From a virus: DNA of 37,081 nt. The number at the start of each line of letters is the position of its first letter. Positions within the stretch are counted from its first letter, which is position 1. Below the pieces are notes generated by a model, which was given only the letters and a program-made list of their open reading frames with translations, made no database searches and had not been told where the DNA came from. Below, in pieces: positions 50-28,793 of this stretch. Position numbers and translations under genes: made by a program. Location of the stretch: the UHGV virus genome UHGV-0136052; one strand, written 5' to 3'.

Positions 50-2644
50 CTACTCTATCTCTTTTGCTTTTTTAATTATCAATTCAAGCTCTGTTAAACG
101 AGATTCAATACGTTCACACCTTCTTCGCTGGAATGCAGCCTCCAACCACAAACATTCATCTGGACGCAATCCCCAACGCTCACCAGCATGTACAACCAGT
201 TCCGTTTCACCAGTATCGTATTCTTCAAAGTATTCGTGAACGATGTCTTCTCCTTCAGGGGATTTAGCTATAAATGACACCTTGCGCTGTGCCATTACAG
301 GTTGGTACTCATCATCCCATTTATCATGACATAGCAAGCCAAATCTTGTTCCATCTATCCCCTTTGCAAGAAACGCATCTCTTACCTGCTGTGCAATTGC
401 TCCGAAATGCCAACGAGCAGTATCCGAACCTTTAGCCTTAATATCGGACAACCACTGGTAAACGATAATATTTACGTCACCCCATGCGTCAAGAATTGCA
501 TCCTGATCCACCTCCATGATTTCTGAAAGTTGCTCTACTGTCAGTGGCTTTGTTTTCAATGTCTGGTCTGAAGTATTTATTGCCCCATTAGTTGCATATA
601 CTTGCGTCCACCGTTTAGATGATGTCCCACATGATGACGTATTATCTTTATTAGCACTTATATAGCCATTAACCTCCGCTGACTGACCGATATACGAATA
701 TGAAGATGTTGATAAGGGAGATTTAAATATCCATTGAGCATTGGTAAAGTCATAAATACCGGTATCACCTTTTTCACTAACATGAAAAGTTACATTCCGT
801 AACGTATTCTTTGCATCATAACGGGCGGCTTGTGTTGTTGCCCTCGAAACAGTGAATCCTTTGTCATCAAGGTTTGCCTGCTCTATGACTTCACCACCAG
901 GCATAATTTTACCAAGGCTTAACAAACCAGAGTTAGTGACAATATCATGGGTTGAATCAATGATAATACCAGGCTGATTTCTTGATGTTGTTTTTACATG
1001 CATGACCTGTTGTGGCATTAATGTGTAAAATGTAGTTTCTCGCCCACTATCACCATCTGGTATGCCATTTGTATTCCCCATTACAAGGTCATACCCACCT
1101 GCAATCATACGGAAAAACATTGCTTCTGGTTCATATGTAAGATTGCTAACATCTGGCGTTCCGGTATCATTTGGATCTGCTATTTCATAGGCTCTTCCTG
1201 CACCTGCCTGTATTTGCTGCACCCCAAGATAAACACCATCAAGTGTGTACTGATGCAAATATTTTCTGGTTGAAGAATATGCAGATCCAGCCTGACAAAA
1301 ATAAATAGCAGTACCGTCACACGCAACTGTTTGCATATCCCTCACAAAATCGGCAATTTCAAATTCAAAAGTTGCTTCATTACGATAATCGTAATTGTAC
1401 GCCTGCGGGTTAATAAATTTGCTGGTATCAAATACTTTTACATAATAGCGAATTTGATCTGGTGTTGATGGGCTCTCACCAGGGCCAACATAACGTTTTG
1501 CTGTAGTAATCAGCCATCGACTCATAGGGTCGGTGCATAAAACATTTACCTGATTCTCGTAACCATCTTCCCATATGAGAAAAAACTCTGGTTCAATTTC
1601 ACCACCATCAGTAGGGGTGAATCTGGTGATATACTTTGCGCGATCCTCTCCTTTAGCTGTGCCAGCTAACCCCCATATCTGTAACTGGCCTCTTGTGTTA
1701 CGAAAACCAACGCGCCCTATGGTTAAACCAAGACATTGATGTCCTAATTCTCTACTACCTTTAGTCTCCCAAAGAGGAGTTAACTCTTCATTCCCAAACC
1801 AATTATAAGCAACAACTTTATTAACTTCGTCACCAGAACTAACGCTGCCACTCACATTTACCAAGCAATAAAGAACACTGTCATAATAATCAAGAACAGC
1901 ACCCTGTATGACAGTATTTTTAATTGTTGCCAGTCGCAACCCTGACTTAACATGATTAGGAGTAGAAGGTCTGAAACCTGTATACATCCCCTTTTTTATA
2001 GTTTGTATTCTTTTTTCAGTAAAATCAGCATCTGGCAGTAATCGATTCTCTGTGCGAAAATAGCCATTTATATACTTATTTCCATCAAAAACTTGATCTG
2101 TTATATATGTATTACCCCTTAGATCAACAATCCTTCCTGTGATTTGTTTTTCTAACTCTTGAAAAGATAATGTGTCATCGGTGATGCCATCACCTTTTGC
2201 TCCCCATCCGCGAGGGTCAGCGTCATCACGCCACCGAGACATCTGCAATTCATGATATTTTTTAGCACCTTCCGGGTCTTCTAATTGTTGTCTTAATTGG
2301 TCAGGATCGTACTTAAGCACATTCGGAAAATAGAACTGCTGCGTACCATATGCATCGTAAACAGCCATAGAATGGCCTTGCACGGTAACGAATTTGGAAA
2401 TCTGTCCGTTGTATACCGGGTATCCAGCAGCATTGATAACGATTGGCTGTGGCACCTGAACATAAGTACCATCTTCTCGTTCCAGATATACTGGAATCTG
2501 GTTTTCTGGATTTACCGGATCTGTGTCAATCTTACCGATATAAATTTTTCCATTTGCTACGGTTTTAAAAGAACTAGCCATTGTGAAGAGTTGCGATGGC
2601 ATACCTATCACAACATTTGGGGTTATATCAGGCATATTAGTCAT
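50..2644 (-). CDS. Tailspike: P22 gp9-like head-binding N-terminus, unassigned central receptor domain, C-terminal intramolecular-chaperone-like domain
   Basis: N-terminus [21 protein letters not shown]...[15 protein letters not shown]...VLKYDPDQ matches recalled P22/Sf6 tailspike; start taken at internal Met (ORF extension upstream judged artifact); S-D-x-x-x-K motif near C-terminal 172 aa. Confidence 0.85.
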
Positions 2645-2989
2645 CCTGTTTGAAGATTTAGATATTGAAGAAAACGGAATGACTGCAGACAACGATGCAA
2701 TTGTTTTGAAAAATAACCTTCTATTCATTTAAAAACCATGCAACATGAACAAAACGATTATTTTACAATACTCAAGAATCTTGATCAACAGGCATATTAT
2801 TTATGCGCTTAATGCGTCACTTACAAAAATAAAAACAAGTAATACCTTTATTCCTATCGTCCATGATTTTTATTTTCAAACATTATTAAATAACAATTCC
2901 TATTTATAATATCTGTCATTTAATTTTCTCCAAATACAAGGAATCGCCGCAGCATTGCCGCAGTGATGTATTATTAATCAAAAAGATAT

Positions 2990-3002
2990 GACCACCGTGG
3001 TC
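2990..3002. promoter_or_regulatory. Perfect palindrome GACCACCGTGGTC, putative Mnt-type operator about 65 bp upstream of mnt
   Basis: Half-sites resemble recalled P22 Omnt core (GTCCACGGTGGAC); position upstream of mnt start. Confidence 0.4.
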
Positions 3003-3066
3003 TTATTGAGGATGCAACCAACAGATAATAAGATGCCGATCCACTCACAAAAGCGAGGCATCAAGA

Positions 3067-3318
3067 ATGGGAAGAGATGACCCGCAATTTAATCTGCGGA
3101 TATCTTACGAATTAAAGGAAAAACTAAAACAGCGAGCCAAATCCAATGGCCGCTCTCTTAATTCAGAATTAGTTCAGATAGTGACTGATGCTGTATCAAA
3201 GCCATCCAAAATTTCAGGCTATTGAGACGATGCGGAACGCATCGCTGATGAGCAGTCCGACCTTGTTAAGAAGATGGTGTTTGATACGCTGAAGGATTTG
3301 TACAAAAAACCCACCTGA
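3067..3318 (+). pseudogene. mnt: Mnt-like ribbon-helix-helix repressor interrupted by in-frame TGA at 3223-3225 (codon 53)
   Basis: Hand translation MGRDDPQFNLRISYELKEKLKQRAKSNGRSLNSELVQIVTDAVSKPSKISGY*DDAERIADEQSDLVKKMVFDTLKDLYKKPT matches recalled P22 Mnt (83 aa) across the stop. Confidence 0.7.
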
Positions 3319-3417
3319 CGGTAGGTTAATTTTTGCATTTACCTGGGCCATATTGACTACTTATAAAATGAGATCAATATTTAATCGCCCAATAACGGGT
3401 GTATGTTGAGGTATATC

Positions 3418-3597
3418 ATGGCGAAAAAACCAGGTGAAAACACAGGAAAAAACGGCGGAATATACCAAGAAGTTGGCCCGCGCGGCGGTAAGAAAGACAA
3501 TTTTGCCACCGTCAAGGACAACGAAAGGCTTCCACCAACAACAAAGCCAGGTCATGGCTGGGTATTAGATAAGCGAACTCCAGACAGCAAAAAGTAA
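3418..3597 (+). CDS. Small hypothetical protein (about 59 aa, Gly/Lys-rich)
   Basis: ORF with GAGGT Shine-Dalgarno before ATG; followed by hairpin terminator; family not recognised with confidence. Confidence 0.45.
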   Translation: MAKKPGENTGKNGGIYQEVGPRGGKKDNFATVKDNERLPPTTKPGHGWVLDKRTPDSKK

Positions 3598-3602
3598 TAA
3601 TC

Positions 3603-3626
3603 AAGCCGGGTCACTCCGGCTTTTTG
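3603..3626 (+). terminator. Rho-independent terminator hairpin (AAGCCGG-GTCACT-CCGGCTT followed by T-run)
   Basis: GC stem plus T5 directly after stop of the 3418-3597 ORF. Confidence 0.6.
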
Positions 3627-3976
3627 ATATGTCGCTCGCAGAACTCAACAAGCCTGCTCATTAAGTAGCAGTAAGTCTCGTTGGCTCTTCCTGGTTCAAC
3701 ATCAACACCGACCCTTGAGCAGATATCGAATGCCATGTGAGCGCACTCATGGGCAATAGTAGATAGTTTGCCATTGAACACGCCTATCACATGCAAAACA
3801 CCATTCTCGCTGCTCATTGTATGAGACGCTCCGTTGGCATCCGAGTCCTGCACGTCCACACCAAGTTTTTGATGCAGGCGTTGCCATTCTGGAAAGTCTC
3901 TACAAAACACAATTGTACCGCTCTCAAAGAGCGGAACGAGCATCTTTGGTACGTTTCCAATATTAACTTTTTTCAT
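3611..3976 (-). CDS. Small protein with HEXXH motif (HECAH), putative zinc metallopeptidase-like
   Basis: ORF with AGGA before internal Met (MKKVNIG...); HEXXH in ...STIAHECAHMAFD...; no family assigned. Confidence 0.5.
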   Translation of the reverse strand: MKKVNIGNVPKMLVPLFESGTIVFCRDFPEWQRLHQKLGVDVQDSDANGASHTMSSENGVLHVIGVFNGKLSTIAHECAHMAFDICSRVGVDVEPGRANETYCYLMSRLVEFCERHIKKPE

Positions 3977-4006
3977 GGTATCCTGCACAAAACTAAGGAG
4001 GTTGGT

Positions 4007-4396
4007 GTGAAGCAATTTCTTGCTGCTATGTTCTTATTCATATCTTTTGGGGCTACAGCAGAGTGCTGGGTCGTTGGAGATATGCGGGGAATAAGCTATT
4101 CAGAACGAAATAATTTCCATCCGGAAGAAGATGGTTTTAGTGGAACATTCATCATTAAGACAAGCGGTGAAGATGCCAGCATCACATATTCTGGGACAGA
4201 TGCGGGCGGCATGGCTTACAAAGCATTGTCTAAAAACTCCATCATAGGAATCGGCGCGAATGGCGAAACTCAACGCGTTATCGACTCATGGGTAATACAT
4301 CCTACTGGAACAGTTTTAATGTCAAAAACCATTTCCGGTTATGGAAATATGGATTCAACCAAAGCTTTTGTTGGAAAAGTAAAAAGAAAATGTTAG
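4007..4396 (+). CDS. Secreted small protein (paralog A), GTG start, predicted Sec signal peptide
   Basis: AAGGAGG 6 nt before GTG; hydrophobic N-terminus ending ATA|ECW; mature about 112 aa with Cys near both ends; about 30 percent identical to 28389-28793 product. Confidence 0.65.
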   Translation: MKQFLAAMFLFISFGATAECWVVGDMRGISYSERNNFHPEEDGFSGTFIIKTSGEDASITYSGTDAGGMAYKALSKNSIIGIGANGETQRVIDSWVIHPTGTVLMSKTISGYGNMDSTKAFVGKVKRKC

Positions 4397-4420
4397 CGAT
4401 TGAATCCAATTTCCCATACG

Positions 4421-6262
4421 TTACTGCTGTGTTGCCTCAGTAGCAAACAGCGGTCTGATGGCATTCGCAGCGTTATTTAGCGCTCTTTCATAGGCTGGTG
4501 TTCCTGCTTTGGTGTTTGCCAAACGAAGAAGCATATTCCTTGCGGCTTTGGACTCATACAAACGCATCATTGCACCAAAGCCAGCCTCAAGCCCCATTGA
4601 TACTCCAAGAGTCGCAGTTGCGCCAATCGTCCTTATCCTGTTGGCTTGTGATTGCCCCGTCTGAGTTACTACATTTGCGGTGTCTGACCTTGCTGTTTGC
4701 TGTAGAACTTCATGAAGAGCATCAAGCTCTTTCATGTGCTTTCCAGAAAAAATAGTGTTGTAAATTTCACCGCCTGACTGAGATTTAAGCTTATTAACTT
4801 CAGTGATGAACTTGGCTGGAGAGTCACCGGCCTTTTCCGCTATTTTGCTGACGTAAGCTGCACGCATAGCATCTTTCCCTTTATCATCCAATGCGCTCCA
4901 GATTCGTTTCACGTCAGATGGCTTTCTGCTTAATACAACGGTATTTATAAGTTCAGGACTGGCTTCACTGCTTGCCTTGTTGAGCTTGTTAGCAATGTTT
5001 TTATTAAGCACCTTATTATAAACGTTTGCATAATCGGAGTTTGCTTTAAGGTATTTTGCTGCGTCTGATGCACCGAGGTTTTTTGCAACTGCGTTACGAA
5101 GATCTTTTGACATTGCATTCTCTACCATATTGGTAGCTGCTTTTGCCTGGTTGGGGAAGACCATAGCATCTCCCTGAACATTGGATCTAAATGCTGTTCT
5201 GTGCTGACGCAAGAGATCAAACGTAACATCCAAATCAGTTGCAGGGTTTGCTAATTCTTCACGTAGGTTACGCAAGGATGTAAGCAGGCTTTGATTGGCA
5301 GACGTCCCAAGCCGTTCCTGTCTTGCGATCGCTGTATTCAGAGCATTCATGGTATTTGTGGTATCAACTGCGGCATTACCCATTTTATTGGTGACGTCAT
5401 TGATAACAGCGCCAGCGGCATCCTTCCGTCCCCTTAACGTGGTGGTCAGAGATTTCACCACATCATCAGGGTTGTACTCACCAAAACGGTCAAAATAATT
5501 GCTTACCAGCTTACTACGCGTTGCATATTGCTCCGCTCGCTTTGAGCCTGTCCCGAGCAAAGCCCCCTCAGCATCCTGAGTAAGTCCGCGAGTGAAAGCA
5601 TTTTTCGGCGGGATAACATCAGATGTCATTGGTGTCACGCCCATCGATTCTGATGTGGCAATTTTCTTCGCCACTTCTGGCGCAATATCACCTTTTATAG
5701 CCGTTATTCCACGCCCTATTCCCTTTGCTGCTGCGGAAAGAACACCCTGAGCGGCAAGGTTAACTCCGGCATTTTTAGCTGCATTTTGTGCGAAATCACC
5801 TTTCTGATTTGCGGCCTCTGCCAGTGATCCAATAGCCATGCTTCCTGCCGTTCCAACTCCTGGAACTAAATACCCGCCAATTGTTTCTCCAGCTTGAGCG
5901 TAGGGGTCTGTCGGTCTGTCTACTGGACGATAGACATCATCCAATACTTTTGGCCCACCAAGCCCCTGACTGATTGCATTAATCAGACTTGCGCCACCCT
6001 GCAATACGTCAAATGGTATGTTTACCAGACCACGACCAGCCTGTTCTGCAATTTGCCCTGCACTTTGACCACCAGTGAGCCAATCGCCAGCTTGTTGCAT
6101 CAATGATGGTTCTTCCCGTGTTGGTGCATTATTGTCCTGATTAACTGTTTTTTGCTGAACAGCCTGACCAGCAAAATACTCATCAATGGCGGTGCCAATA
6201 TCTTCCGTGCTCGTACCATCAGGGAAGGTAAATGTCTTACCGTTTGCAGTTACTTTCATCAT
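4421..6262 (-). CDS. Ejection/internal protein, P22 gp16-like
   Basis: Size (613 aa) and position after gp20 in P22 gene order; Ala/Gly-rich. Confidence 0.75.
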
Positions 6263-7674
6263 TCCACCGTAAATTGAATGCCTGATTTTGAGGTATATGA
6301 TCCAACCTGATTCCGTGGTTCTCCTGAAGGCGTCGAATCTTGTGCTGGCGCTGCGTCAGTATTCATTGACATATACCGCTTAACGGCACTCCCCAATGAT
6401 TCACCTTTTTTAACATCCAACCCCAATATCTGACCGCCATTACGCGATTGTCCAGGGTTGCCATTCGCGCTCATCCACTCGGCTTTAAACTCATTAAACT
6501 GCGCGTTTCGTCGCTCAAGGTTTGCCATTGCATCAAGCCATCTTGCGACCGTCTCAGGGTTATCCATGTCAGTTGGCGCACCCTGTCGAACGATCTCAAC
6601 GTCTTTATCCGTTGCTGGGCCGGGAGGTAGGAATTTAAGAACCTGACTGTTAACAAGGGCATTTTGGCGAATGCGCAAATCACGCAATGTCGTATCACTT
6701 CCGGTAAGTTTTGCGAACATGTTCTGTGCGTTACCGAACAAACCTGTCGTTGGTTTTTCTGCTCTGAACTGTTGAGCAAGCGCACTCATAGAATTGGCTG
6801 AGTTTGATGATGCTGTGGCATTGTTTACAGCCGTCTCGATGCCTTTTTCCATGTTTACTGACAGCTTAGGTGCTTCGCTAATCAACTGCTGAGCCTTTTC
6901 CTGCGCTTGCTGCATCTTAAACCCGAACTCTTGCTGATCCAGAGCCAAGCGTTGTGCTGCGATATTGTGCCCAGTCATTGCTGACTGATAGGAAAGGTTT
7001 TGCCCTCTCGCCTGAAGTGCTTCACCAGCCTGATTGCTGCGGATTGTTTCTGCCAGCCTGCCTCGGTCAATTTCACGACCAGCCATCTTATCCTGAACAG
7101 CAAACGCCTTTTCTGGCCCAAGTGCACCGAGAGACATAGTAGTCAGCATGTGTGATAGCTGCTCTGGATTCTGGATACCTGTCTGAATCATCCAGTCAGC
7201 ATTAGCGCCAACGCGATTTAACCTGTCCTTGTTGTCAGTAATGAATTTACTGTAGGCTTCCGGTCCCTGAGAAAGAGCGACGTTAGCTCTCATGGCTAAA
7301 TCGCCCATATCGTTGCGTTGCTGATCATTAAGACCTGAAAACGCCTGTTGTGCCTGTGCAACAAACGCTGGATTTTCCTGGGCAAACTTAAATAGTCCCG
7401 ATGGATCACCAGAAGCCCATGCATCAGCATGAACCTTATTGAACGCACTAATCGCTTTCTGTTGCTGTTCCTGATTGTAAATATCAGCAACTCCAGCCAG
7501 ACCACGTAACGCGGTCAGACCAACGTTATTTGCACCTGATCGAGCCAATTCATTGTTTTCGCGGATCAGACCAAGCGTTGCGTTAATGTCGCTTGCCTTT
7601 GGCGCATTCTCATTTTGCGTACCGATGCCAGCCAGAAAACCACCAGAATTAATACCCTGTTGCCACGTAGCCAT
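6259..7674 (-). CDS. Ejection protein, P22 gp20-like
   Basis: 471 aa, same length and position as P22 gp20. Confidence 0.75.
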
Positions 7675-23009: not shown

Positions 23010-23146
23010 AGGTGAGCCGTGTAATTGAAGGTTTTTACGTCAGATTCTTTTTGGATTGGCTTGCGTTTATTTCTGGAGCGTTTCGTTGGAAGGTATTTGC
23101 AGTTTTCGCAGATTATGTCGGTGATACTTCGTCGCTGTCTCGCCAC
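22964..23146 (-). CDS. ninE: NinE-like protein
   Basis: 60 aa, ...[19 protein letters not shown]...[26 protein letters not shown] matches recalled lambda NinE. Confidence 0.75.
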
Positions 23147-23286
23147 ACGTCCTCCTTTTCCTGCGGTAGTGGTAACACCCCTGTTGGTGTTCTTTCACAC
23201 CGGAGACACCATCGATTCCAGTAAGGTTGATTTGGTCGGAAGCGGTTATCTTCTTTGCATTCACCGCACCGATAACATCGCATCAT
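23113..23286 (-). CDS. ninD: NinD-like zinc-finger protein
   Basis: From internal Met: [34 protein letters not shown]...; 57 aa as in lambda NinD. Confidence 0.65.
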
Positions 23287-24155
23287 GCAGCTTCCCTCCC
23301 GAAGTCGAAATAAAGCTGCCCTCCAAATATTTCGCATGACTCAGAACAAGAGCCGGTATCGAATCTTTTAGCTCGTACCATGTCCTGATACAGGGCTTGA
23401 TAATCATTTTCTGAATACATTTTCGCGATACCATCCAGCGACATTCTTCCTCGGTACATAATCTCCTTTGGTGTTTCCCGATGTCCGTCACGCACATGCG
23501 ATCCCGTGATGACCTCATTAAAAACACGCTGCAATCCCTCCTCATCTTTGCAGGCAAGTCCGATTTTTTGCGTTGATTTTTTAATGCAGAATATGCAGTT
23601 ACCGAGATGTTCCGGTATTTGCAAATCGAATGGTTGTTGCTTCCACCATGCGAGGATATCTTCCTTCTCAAAGTCTGACAGCTCAGCAAGATATCTGATT
23701 CCAGGCTTTGGCTTTAGCCGCTTCGGTTCATCAGCTCTGATGCCAATCCACGTGGTGTAATTCCCTCGCCCGAAATGGTCATCACAGTATTTGGTGAAGG
23801 GAACGAGTTTTAATCTGTCAGTGCAGAACGCGCCGCCGACGTATGGAGTGCCATATTTCTTTACCATATCGATAAATGGCTTCAGAACAGGCATTCGCGT
23901 CTGAATATCCTTTGGCTCCCATACCGTATAACCATTTGGCTGCCCAGGCTCTGGGTTGATATCAACCTGCAATACAGTGAGCGGTATATCCCAGAACTTC
24001 ACAACTTCGCGGATAAACCGATATGTCATCGGGTGTTCACAACCTGTATCCATGAAAACGTAATGCACGTCTTCACCTGCCTGTCGCTTTTGCTCCATTA
24101 GCCAGAGCAAATATGCTGACGTCCTGCCACCGGAGAAACTAACGACATTTATCAT
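23283..24155 (-). CDS. ninC: NinC (PAPS-reductase-like fold)
   Basis: From internal Met [24 protein letters not shown]...; 290 aa as in lambda NinC. Confidence 0.85.

Positions 24156-27440: not shown

Positions 27441-28793
<1,353 letters not shown>

What the first reader, a model, noticed from the sequence alone, without database searches (positions are those of the whole stretch)
3611..4396. Divergent pair in the immI/sieA locus: secreted paralog A and a small HEXXH protein
P22 carries sieA, mnt, arc and ant between gene 16 and the tailspike. Here that locus holds a GTG-initiated signal-peptide protein (4007-4396, strong AAGGAGG RBS) that is a paralog of the cI-coupled protein. Diverging from it, only about 30 bp separate the start codons, is a 121-aa protein with an HEXXH zinc-binding motif (HECAH). 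Neither is recognisable to me. The tight divergent arrangement suggests a functionally linked cargo module, possibly exclusion or defence.
Basis: partly seen in the sequence, partly recalled or inferred. Interest (0 to 1): 0.65.

Follow-up and report, generated by a model that had tools for sequence, protein, structure and literature searches.

The report
Hex-like secreted protein in P22 sieA slot
Two real but unlinked prophage genes sit back to back: hkcC, a conserved small gene with a zinc-protease-like motif and unknown function, and a swappable slot that here holds a secreted relative of phage 434 Hex instead of the exclusion gene sieA, so it probably helps the lysogen keep other phages out.

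Summary
The window is a P22-like E. coli prophage with a phage 434 immunity region.

- **hkcC (3611-3976, minus strand).** It is 100% identical to HK620 HkcC and is present, unannotated, in P22. It is under purifying selection. It belongs to a large phage family (PHROG 1365) whose only invariant residues are HExxH plus a Glu 20 residues later. No curated metallopeptidase family or solved fold matched significantly.
- **Secreted protein (4007-4396, plus strand).** It replaces sieA exactly at the sieA GTG and keeps the P22 upstream sequence and ribosome-binding site. It is predicted to be a signal-peptide-bearing periplasmic eight-stranded beta-barrel with conserved terminal cysteines.
- **The cI-coupled paralog.** It is phage 434 Hex (96% identical), reported to be required for exclusion of P22.
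- **No linkage.** In 80 related viral contigs hkcC is constant, while the slot holds 11 unrelated envelope-targeted proteins. The recurrent neighbour of hkcC is the convergent orf59a.

Most likely the secreted protein is a lysogen-expressed exclusion factor. hkcC is probably a late-transcribed, zincin-like protein with an unknown target. Neither function has been tested.

The parts
4007..4396 (+). Hex-like secreted protein gene (GTG start, 129 aa precursor, PHROG 2651), occupying the sieA slot
   Evidence: ORF and sequence. PHROG 2651 at E=9e-61. 29% identical to the window's Hex copy. Identity to P22 stops right after the shared GTG. AF2 model pLDDT 88, eight- to nine-strand beta-barrel.
4007..4060 (+). 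Predicted Sec signal peptide (18 aa, cleavage ATA|ECW)
   Evidence: Basic n-region (K2) and a hydrophobic core (Kyte-Doolittle segment 3-19). An (A/S/V)-x-(A/S) motif precedes x-C-W in 28 of 28 family members. The residue before Cys is E/D/N/Q/K/S in 27 of 28, so this is not a lipobox.
3995..4001 (+). Shine-Dalgarno AAGGAGG, shared with P22 sieA
   Evidence: Read directly from the sequence. Identical in P22. Conserved in most of the 80 related loci whatever the cargo.
3946..3976 (+). Region homologous to the annotated P22 sieA promoter (PsieA), lying inside the first codons of hkcC
   Evidence: P22-pbi annotation (L001 3220-3250) transferred through the alignment; one substitution at 3962. The simple sigma-70 scan did not call it independently.
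3611..3976 (-). hkcC: 121-aa HExxH...E protein (PHROG 1365), on the same strand as the late operon
   Evidence: 100% identical to HK620 HkcC and to the unannotated P22 ORF. PHROG 1365 at E=1.4e-39. 29 synonymous versus 4 non-synonymous variable sites. No hydrophobic segment.
3737..3751 (-). HECAH codons (H76, E77, H80)
   Evidence: H76, E77 and H80 are invariant in 105 members that are 22-74% (mostly 22-44%) identical to the window protein.
3677..3679 (-). Glu100 codon, the candidate third metal ligand (in ANET), 20 residues after H80
   Evidence: It is the only other invariant column in alignment A5. It lies at the start of the last predicted helix.
3603..3622 (.). Bidirectional hairpin terminator between hkcC and orf59a (t_mnt / tORF59A)
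   Evidence: Terminator scan found it on both strands. It is annotated in P22-pbi and HK620.
3418..3597 (+). orf59a (HkcD), the recurrent convergent partner of hkcC
   Evidence: 98% identical to P22 orf59a. PHROG 3202. A convergent hkcC-family gene lies about 20 nt away in 77 of 80 orf59a loci. The pair also occurs in five distant siphovirus-type prophage loci.
3067..3225 (+). Truncated mnt (Arc-family repressor pseudogene); similarity to Mnt continues to about 3315
   Evidence: Pfam Arc at E=2e-20. RefSeq flags an internal stop. tblastn with P22 Mnt spans 3067-3315 across the stop.
28389..28793 (+). hex of phage 434 (paralog B); its ATG overlaps the cI stop codon
   Evidence: 96% identical to the phage 434 protein. 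In Yersinia and Klebsiella homologs the coupled ATG is the only conserved start, because stop codons lie just upstream in frame. Function reported in PMC3564112.
27760..28392 (+). cI repressor of the 434 immunity type
   Evidence: 99% identical to the phage 434 repressor.

Best explanation
The two ORFs are real genes that meet at a mosaic boundary in the 'ant moron' of a P22-like prophage. They are not a dedicated pair.

**(1) The secreted protein, 4007-4396 (+).** It is a moron cargo gene that replaced sieA exactly at its GTG and inherited the sequence of the P22 sieA promoter region and ribosome-binding site (shown). It encodes a precursor with a signal-peptidase-I-type signal peptide. The mature protein, about 12 kDa, is predicted to be a soluble periplasmic eight-stranded beta-barrel. 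Its first and last residues carry invariant cysteines, probably disulfide-linked (predicted). It belongs to the Hex family (shown). The phage 434 founder of that family is co-transcribed with cI and is reported to be required for exclusion of P22 (literature). I infer that this protein is made in the lysogen and acts in the periplasm as a superinfection-exclusion factor. The most likely mechanism is interference with genome delivery by incoming P22-like phages, whose ejection proteins build a trans-periplasmic conduit.

**(2) hkcC, 3611-3976 (-).** It is the constant flank of that slot. It lies on the late-operon strand, so it would be transcribed by late read-through toward the tailspike gene (inferred). 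It belongs to a large phage family whose only invariant residues are HExxH plus a Glu 20 residues downstream, with a predicted topology compatible with a zincin. I infer a small cytoplasmic zinc-dependent hydrolase or zinc-binding protein with an unknown target. It is often carried together with the convergent orf59a.
For: **Slot architecture**
- Window 3227-4009 is 98.6% identical to P22, and identity ends just after the sieA GTG.
- In 80 loci the hkcC gene (>=99% identical) is constant, and the intergenic region, SD and start are largely conserved. The cargo varies among 11 types with no mutual similarity, and every type has an N-terminal hydrophobic segment.
- One gene 16 C-terminal allele carries five or more cargo types.

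**Secreted protein**
- PHROG 2651 and paralogy with the cI-coupled gene.
- The paralog is 434 Hex, next to a 434-type cI.
- hex is on the PRM transcript, and P22 exclusion is reported to depend on it (PMC3564112).
- Signal-peptide and Cys/Trp conservation in 28 of 28 members.
- Confident beta-barrel model.
- Homologs are translationally coupled to cI in Yersinia and Klebsiella prophages.
- The 16-to-9 region also yields lysogen-expressed exclusion functions in P22 (SieA, PMC10883804) and BTP1 (STnc6030, PMC7067206).

**hkcC**
- Identity with HK620 hkcC; listed among P22 genes of unknown function in PMC2629481.
- 29:4 synonymous to non-synonymous variable sites.
- 551 representatives, with H76/E77/H80/E100 the only invariant columns.
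- AF2 topology is strand-strand-helix-strand-strand, then the HExxH helix, then the Glu helix.
- Weak SprT-like hits in 14 of 105 members and a weak myroilysin hit.
- Always on the same strand as late genes in four other genomic contexts.
- Late transcription is reported to cross the ant moron (PMC2629481).
Against: - No expression or phenotype data exist for either gene in this prophage.
- The simple promoter scan did not find a sigma-70 match at the PsieA-homologous site.
- The only biochemical study of Hex proposes a cytoplasmic role, blocking RecA-stimulated repressor cleavage (PMC3564112). How Hex excludes P22 is unknown, and it could be abortive infection rather than an entry block.
- Within-type polymorphism of the secreted gene is 9 synonymous to 8 non-synonymous, so constraint is weak or selection is diversifying.
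- The family consensus matches SprT-like only over the motif helix.
Confidence: 0.6

Rival explanations
1. One reading: the HEXXH protein and the secreted protein form one divergently transcribed exclusion or defence module, for example a protease that processes or controls the secreted partner.
For: The start codons are only 30 nt apart, and the sieA promoter region overlaps the first codons of hkcC.
Against: hkcC is constant while the partner is one of 11 unrelated genes; the Hex-like cargo is present in 11 of 80 loci. Distant hkcC homologs have no PHROG 2651 neighbour. Hex-family genes next to cI have no hkcC neighbour. HkcC has no export signal, whereas the cargo is exported. sieA alone suffices for exclusion (PMC10883804).
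Confidence: 0.04
2. The secreted protein works like the published model for Hex: a cytoplasmic 'repressor protection protein' that binds the prophage repressor and blocks RecA-stimulated autocleavage, which stabilises lysogeny.
For: PMC3564112 reports three things. A hex deletion raises spontaneous induction 30-fold in a RecA-dependent way. A 6-kDa fragment, sHex, partly complements the deletion. sHex blocks cleavage of the 434 and P22 repressors in vitro. The resident repressor here is the 434 type.
Against: - All 28 family members start with a signal peptide followed by x-C-W and carry a C-terminal Cys.
- The 24-residue N-terminal extension used in that study is broken by stop codons in homologs.
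- sHex starts at E43, exactly the predicted signal-peptidase site. It covers only the first half of the predicted barrel.
- Full-length Hex was lethal on over-expression, as expected for an exported protein.
- Paralog A is not linked to cI and is only 29% identical to Hex.
- Aeromonas homologs lie in islands with no repressor gene nearby.
Confidence: 0.12
3. The secreted barrel is a lysogenic-conversion factor unrelated to phage exclusion. It could be a periplasmic inhibitor or immunity protein (against lysozyme, type VI amidases or colicins), or a small ligand-binding, calycin-like protein that improves host fitness.
Against: The founding member has a reported phage-exclusion phenotype (PMC3564112). 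Both copies here sit in the two classic prophage exclusion slots, downstream of cI and at sieA. No sequence similarity to MliC/PliC, Ivy or any Pfam family was found.
Confidence: 0.2
4. hkcC is conserved for a DNA-level reason (it carries the sieA promoter and a terminator and acts as a recombination linker), or it encodes a non-catalytic protein in which HExxH is incidental.
For: hkcC is nearly identical (>=99%) across E. coli and Salmonella phages, while both flanks are mosaic. No fold or family match to a peptidase was found.
Against: Variable sites are 29 synonymous to 4 non-synonymous. Homologs mostly 22-44% identical, in unrelated genomic contexts, keep the same length, and exactly H-E-x-x-H and E100 are invariant. 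Four invariant residues with zincin spacing are unlikely to be incidental.
Confidence: 0.08

Closest known systems
Phage 434 Hex ('heterologous exclusion'; annotated 'repressor protection protein' in recent 434 records)
   Same: Same family: PHROG 2651, 27-29% identity over the full length. It shares the signal peptide, the N-terminal C-W, the C-terminal Cys and the size. The window carries a 96% identical hex copy at 28389-28793. Both genes sit in positions expressed from prophages.
   Different: Paralog A is not translationally coupled to cI. It sits on the sieA promoter region and start codon between gene 16 and the tailspike, and it is a divergent subfamily. Its phenotype has not been tested. 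My analysis predicts an exported periplasmic barrel, whereas the published Hex mechanism is cytoplasmic (PMC3564112).
P22 SieA (superinfection exclusion A)
   Same: Same slot, same upstream sequence, SD and GTG, same orientation, and both are envelope-targeted. SieA blocks DNA delivery by P22-like phages (PMC10883804).
   Different: There is no sequence similarity. SieA is a polytopic inner-membrane protein of 164 aa with the FxRYPxEAxxFNK motif. The protein here has only a cleavable signal peptide and a predicted soluble beta-barrel.
HK620 hkcC / P22 hkcC, in the 'ant moron' of P22-like phages
   Same: The HEXXH ORF is this gene: 100% protein identity and the same neighbours (cargo slot, bidirectional terminator, orf59a/HkcD).
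   Different: Nothing differs at the sequence level. The literature lists it only as 'unknown'. The HExxH...E signature, the size of the family and the recurrent pairing with orf59a were worked out here.
Gluzincin-type minimal zinc metallopeptidases (thermolysin-style HExxH plus a downstream Glu; minigluzincins) and the SprT-like family PF10263
   Same: HExxH is invariant, with a Glu 20 residues after the second His at the start of the next helix. From my own knowledge, this is the same spacing as thermolysin H146-E166. The predicted order is sheet, backing helix, motif helix, Glu helix. Weak SprT-like and myroilysin hits were found.
Lysogen-expressed defence genes downstream of cI (lambda rexAB, BTP1 bstA)
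   Same: Paralog B occupies this position and is co-transcribed with the repressor. The logic of a prophage-expressed protective gene is the same (PMC3564112 introduction; PMC8585504 and PMC7067206 listed).
   Different: Those proteins act in the cytoplasm or inner membrane by abortive infection. The Hex family is predicted to be periplasmic.

Membership tests
Hex family (PHROG 2651; phage 434 Hex) | Significant full-length sequence similarity to 434 Hex | tested here: met
   BLASTP E=1e-12 and 29% identity to the window copy, which is 96% identical to 434 Hex. tblastn hits 434, lambda imm434, Sf6 gene 38 and HK446. PHROG 2651 at E=9e-61.
Hex family (PHROG 2651; phage 434 Hex) | Family-wide motifs: signal peptide, x-C-W at the mature N-terminus, Cys near the C-terminus | tested here: met
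   C20, W21 and C129 are invariant in 28 sequences. The A/S/V-x-A/S cleavage motif is present in 28 of 28.
Hex family (PHROG 2651; phage 434 Hex) | Gene directly downstream of, and translationally coupled to, the cI repressor on the PRM transcript | tested here: not met
   Paralog A lies between gene 16 and hkcC on the sieA start codon. The feature is met by paralog B and by the Yersinia and Klebsiella homologs.
Hex family (PHROG 2651; phage 434 Hex) | Phenotype: exclusion of P22 and/or lower spontaneous induction | not testable with these tools
   Known only from PMC3564112 and the Susskind and Botstein 1980 paper it cites. It requires plating and induction assays.
SieA superinfection exclusion proteins (types A, B, C) | Sequence homology, including the FxRYPxEAxxFNK motif, and several transmembrane helices | tested here: not met
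   tblastn with P22 SieA finds nothing in the window. The only hydrophobic segment is the signal peptide, against about 4 in SieA. The motif is described in PMC10883804.
SieA superinfection exclusion proteins (types A, B, C) | Position between genes 16 and 9, transcribed opposite to the late operon from PsieA | tested here: met
   Identical upstream sequence, SD and GTG as P22 sieA.
Zincin / gluzincin metallopeptidases | Invariant HExxH on a helix | tested here: met
   H76, E77 and H80 are invariant in 105 diverse members. They lie in predicted helix 71-88.
Zincin / gluzincin metallopeptidases | Third ligand Glu on the following helix, about 20 or more residues downstream | tested here: met
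   E100 is the only other invariant column and sits at the start of helix 100-116.
Zincin / gluzincin metallopeptidases | Zincin fold confirmed by structural similarity to solved peptidases | tested here: inconclusive
Zincin / gluzincin metallopeptidases | Zinc binding and peptidase activity | not testable with these tools
   This needs purified protein, metal analysis and substrate assays.
SprT-like family (Pfam PF10263) | Match above the Pfam gathering score | tested here: not met
   The window protein gives no hit. 14 of 105 relatives hit weakly, best E=1e-4. The family consensus scores 12.4 bits against a cutoff of 25.6, over 17 residues only.
ImmA/IrrE (COG2856, Peptidase_M78) anti-repressor proteases | Sequence match to the family and pairing with an Xre-type repressor | tested here: not met
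   No member of alignment A5 hit this Pfam family at E<=0.1. The neighbours are orf59a, Arc/Mnt-type genes or late genes.

The most novel reading that the evidence does not exclude
Hex-family proteins, including the classical phage 434 Hex, are Sec-exported periplasmic beta-barrels that block genome delivery by P22-like podoviruses. They would do so by targeting the trans-periplasmic conduit built from ejection proteins. On this reading the published cytoplasmic 'repressor protection' mechanism is indirect or an artefact of using a half-barrel fragment. The sieA position would be a plug-and-play expression site, with fixed promoter, SD and GTG, at which at least 11 unrelated envelope proteins are exchanged as alternative entry blocks. 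Separately, hkcC and orf59a would be a mobile two-gene unit encoding a minimal zinc protease and its partner, acting during lytic growth.
Probability: 0.3. Interest if true: 0.7.

Novelty: new member of a known kind. Interest (0 to 1): 0.45.

Why it matters
- **A testable origin for the cargo gene.** An anonymous 'hypothetical protein' in the sieA slot is linked to Hex, one of the oldest and least understood exclusion genes. This gives a direct hypothesis: a periplasmic block to entry of P22-like phages.
- **A conflict with the published Hex mechanism.** The proposed cytoplasmic mechanism sits badly with a signal peptide conserved across the family. The stable fragment in that study begins exactly at the predicted cleavage site. 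The unexplained lethality of full-length Hex fits an exported protein.
- **A natural cassette site.** The sieA position has a fixed expression context and at least 11 alternative envelope proteins. It is a ready-made catalogue of candidate entry-blocking factors.
- **A defined family for hkcC.** hkcC, present in P22 and HK620 for decades without a function, becomes a large phage family with four invariant zincin-type residues. That gives precise point mutants to test.

Tried and rejected
- **Family libraries.** Pfam, NCBIfam and PADLOC gave nothing meaningful for either protein. The weak lantibiotic hits to hkcC are chance matches over the HEC motif.
- **Profile and consensus searches.** Profiles against PDB sequences and family consensus sequences against Pfam did not connect either family to a known one.
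- **Domain fusions.** Longer hkcC relatives carry no Pfam domain. All tested relatives fall in PHROG 1365, 'unknown function'.
- **Cargo and gene 16 co-variation.** Linkage is only partial. One gene 16 allele carries five or more cargo types, so I did not pursue cargo-specific self-resistance.
- **Non-coding RNA.** An Rfam scan of 2500-4700 found nothing, and no sar RNA.
- **dN/dS against distant hkcC homologs.** dS was saturated, so only the within-clade polymorphism count was used.
- **Literature.** Searches for the PHROG numbers found nothing. Searching 'hkcC' alone returned only unrelated acronyms. The 1980 Susskind and Botstein paper is not held.
- **Remote locus search.** A locus search with the 105-sequence alignment failed for lack of a conserved stretch.
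Full report
**Setting.** The window is a P22-like (Lederbergvirus) prophage of E. coli. It is 99.8% identical over the locus to E. coli strains A3 and A26. The late operon is on the minus strand: gene 20 at 6259-7674, gene 16 at 4421-6262 and the tailspike at 50-2728. Between gene 16 and the tailspike lies what Villafane et al. called the 'ant moron', a region that varies among P22-like phages (PMC2629481). Here it holds five elements:
- a truncated mnt (3067-3225, internal stop);
- orf59a (3418-3597);
- a bidirectional terminator (3603-3622);
- the HEXXH ORF (3611-3976, minus strand);
- the GTG-initiated ORF (4007-4396, plus strand).

There is no arc or ant.

Both ORFs are genuine genes.
- Across 80 viral contigs the HEXXH ORF shows 29 synonymous and only 4 non-synonymous variable sites.
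- A profile search finds 551 cluster representatives at E<=1e-3.
- The secreted protein has full-length relatives at 46-91% identity that keep the signal peptide and both cysteines.

**What the plus-strand gene is.** Window 3227-4009 is 98.6% identical to phage P22 itself. The alignment breaks down immediately after the GTG that starts P22 sieA. So the gene replaces the sieA coding sequence and keeps the P22 upstream region, which includes the annotated PsieA, the SD and the start codon.

The protein has several predicted features:
- a signal peptide with a typical signal-peptidase-I site (ATA|ECW);
- C20, W21 and C129 invariant in 28 family members, all 28 of which have an A/S/V-x-A/S site just before x-C-W;
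- no lipobox in 27 of 28;
- a confident AlphaFold model (pLDDT 88) that is an up-and-down beta-barrel.

**The paralog is Hex.** A tblastn search of phage genomes with the secreted protein hit the gene that overlaps the end of cI in phage 434, lambda imm434, Sf6 (gene 38), HK446, HK633 and Sf101. The window's cI is 99% identical to the 434 repressor. Its downstream gene is 96% identical to the 434 gene annotated 'repressor protection protein'. This gene is hex ('heterologous exclusion').

According to Shkilnyj et al. (PMC3564112):
- hex is co-transcribed with cI from PRM;
- lambda imm434 lysogens of Salmonella exclude P22, whereas hex mutants do not (work of Susskind and Botstein, 1980);
- a hex deletion raises spontaneous induction 30-fold in a RecA-dependent way.

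The secreted protein at 4007-4396 is therefore a divergent Hex-family member placed in the sieA slot. Both copies in this prophage occupy classic lysogen-expressed exclusion positions.

**A conflict with the published Hex mechanism.** That study used a 158-aa ORF starting 24 codons upstream, inside cI. It found full-length Hex lethal when over-expressed. It worked with a 6-kDa fragment running from E43 to N103. Four points argue against a cytoplasmic role:
- In Yersinia and Klebsiella homologs the upstream extension is interrupted by stop codons. The only conserved start is the ATG that overlaps the cI stop codon.
- E43 is exactly the first residue after the predicted signal-peptidase site.
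- The fragment covers only the first half of the predicted barrel.
- The paper never mentions a signal peptide or the periplasm.

I therefore consider a periplasmic site of action more likely than the proposed cytoplasmic one. I could not test this.

**What the minus-strand gene is.** The 121-aa protein is 100% identical to HK620 HkcC ('unknown') and to an ORF in P22 that older P22 records leave unannotated. PMC2629481 lists hkcC and 59a as the two P22 ant-moron genes of unknown function.

In an alignment of 105 members, 22-74% (mostly 22-44%) identical to the window protein, the only invariant columns are H76, E77, H80 and E100. That is HExxH plus a Glu 20 residues after the second His. From my own knowledge this is the spacing seen in thermolysin-type gluzincins. 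The cysteines that stand out in the P22-like clade are not conserved across the family.

The AlphaFold model has pLDDT 83.6, but only 2 of 5 runs were confident. Its order of elements is strand, strand, helix, strand, strand, HExxH helix, Glu helix, which is compatible with a minimal zincin.

Membership in a known peptidase family could not be shown:
- 14 of 105 members hit Pfam SprT-like weakly (best E=1e-4);
- the profile hits myroilysin at E=0.013;
- the family consensus matches SprT-like only over the motif helix;

All tested relatives fall in PHROG 1365, 'unknown function'.

**Are the two genes a module? No.** I examined 80 IMG/VR loci whose hkcC is at least 99% identical.
- The intergenic region, SD and start are largely conserved. 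The ORF that diverges from hkcC varies: SieA in 12 loci, the Hex-like protein in 11, a 161-aa lipoprotein in 16, and eight further types in 41.
- The eight further types are two 109-aa proteins with a membrane anchor plus coiled coil (one of them HK620 HkcB-like), and 62-, 75-, 106- and 149-aa membrane proteins, and 68- and 99-aa signal-peptide proteins.
- None of the 11 types resembles another by BLASTP. All have an N-terminal hydrophobic segment.
- One gene 16 C-terminal allele is found with at least five cargo types.
- The left boundary of the swapped segment is sharp at the start codon. The right boundary runs into a diverged 3' end of gene 16.
- Distant hkcC homologs never have a Hex-family neighbour.
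- Leavitt et al. showed that sieA alone suffices for exclusion (PMC10883804).

The divergent arrangement therefore reflects a constant gene abutting a variable expression slot.

**The real recurrent partner of hkcC.** The gene that travels with hkcC is orf59a (HkcD). It is convergent with hkcC and shares the terminator.
- It is present in 69 of the 80 loci.
- Conversely, 77 of 80 orf59a loci have a convergent hkcC-family gene about 20 nt away.
- The pair also occurs among tail genes of siphovirus-type prophages of Rosenbergiella, Klebsiella and Xenorhabdus, and in Proteus and Pasteurellaceae loci (46-63% identity). In Proteus it sits next to mnt-, arc- and ant-like genes.
- More distant homologs (38-42% identity) lie between the lysis genes and the small terminase subunit without orf59a. 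Examples are ST64T Orf129, epsilon34 gp70, phage L, mEp021, and prophages of Kluyvera, Citrobacter and Atlantibacter.
- Weaker relatives occur in virulent phages.

In the temperate-phage contexts examined, the gene is on the same strand as the late genes. In P22-like phages late transcription is reported to cross the ant moron toward the tailspike gene (PMC2629481). Late lytic expression of hkcC is therefore the simplest inference.

**Mechanism and confidence.**
- Shown: gene identities, the slot architecture, family memberships and conserved residues.
- Predicted: export, the barrel fold and the zincin-like topology.
- Inferred: lysogenic expression of the Hex-like gene from the PsieA region; an exclusion function acting in the periplasm, possibly on the ejection-protein conduit that SieA also affects (PMC10883804); late expression of hkcC and a metal-dependent activity for it.
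- Further context: BTP1, another P22-like prophage, expresses an exclusion RNA from the same inter-gene region (PMC7067206). The location is thus a recurrent home for exclusion functions.
- Caveats: the barrel fold is generic, the way Hex excludes P22 is unknown, and there are no expression data for this prophage.

**Novelty.** The variable 'ant moron', hkcC as a named unknown, sieA and hex are all in the literature. Four points appear to be new relative to what I could find:
- a Hex-family protein sits in the sieA slot;
- the Hex family looks like an exported periplasmic barrel;
- the slot has a fixed start-codon junction with at least 11 alternative envelope cargos;
- the hkcC family is defined by HExxH...E and is often paired with orf59a.

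I rate this a new member of a known kind, of moderate interest.

Noticed in passing
window 3977-4006 and the cargo ORF beyond; loci L006-L085: The sieA position behaves like a cassette site. hkcC is constant and the promoter region, SD (AAGGAGG) and GTG are largely conserved. Eleven mutually unrelated cargo ORFs follow, and all carry an N-terminal membrane anchor, signal peptide or lipobox.
   Followed up: yes
window 3418-3622; L003, L004, L086-L088, L106-L185: orf59a (HkcD, 59 aa, Gly/Lys-rich, weak YjzC-like hit) is the recurrent convergent partner of hkcC, and the two share a bidirectional terminator. The pair is found in P22-like podoviruses and in siphovirus-type prophages. In three of 80 orf59a loci the gene occurs alone. 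Its function is unknown.
   Followed up: partly
window 28317-28793: The 158-aa Hex ORF used in the 2013 study starts inside cI. Homologs have stop codons in that extension, so the conserved start is the ATG at 28389 that overlaps the cI stop codon. The stable fragment in that study begins at E43, which is the predicted signal-peptidase cleavage site.
   Followed up: yes
window 27760-28392: This P22-like prophage carries the phage 434 immunity region. Its cI is 99% identical to the 434 repressor.
   Followed up: yes
window 3067-3318: mnt is a pseudogene. A stop after codon 52 removes the C-terminal part, and similarity to Mnt continues in frame to about 3315. arc, ant and sar are absent, so the immI circuit is defunct here.
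   Followed up: partly
window 4007-4030: RefSeq (WP_063610642.1) starts this gene at the ATG at 4028, which removes the charged start and part of the hydrophobic core of the signal peptide. The GTG at 4007 is supported by the SD, by the P22 sieA start and by 129-aa homologs.
   Followed up: yes
phage records KR296688, PQ850609, OY978778: Some public annotations of these families look wrong. hkcC is labelled 'GNAT family acetyltransferase'. The Hex homolog is labelled 'PagP lipid A acylation protein'. One hkcC relative lies under a 'tape measure protein' annotation.
   Followed up: no
L188 (ST64T 23069-23458); epsilon34 gene 70; phage L Orf129: Several P22-like phages carry a second, 38-40% identical hkcC-family gene between the lysis genes and the small terminase subunit. 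Some records have both copies. The window has no such second copy.
   Followed up: partly
L098-L100 (Aeromonas caviae): Hex-family homologs (about 48% identical to Hex) occur in integrase- or resolvase-associated islands with no nearby cI-type repressor. The family is therefore not restricted to the cI operon or the sieA slot.
   Followed up: no
window 4397-4640 versus P22: The 3' end of gene 16 next to the cargo is only about 70-78% identical to P22, while the hkcC side is nearly identical. The swapped segment therefore extends into the C-terminal region of gp16, where SieA-escape mutations map in P22.
   Followed up: partly
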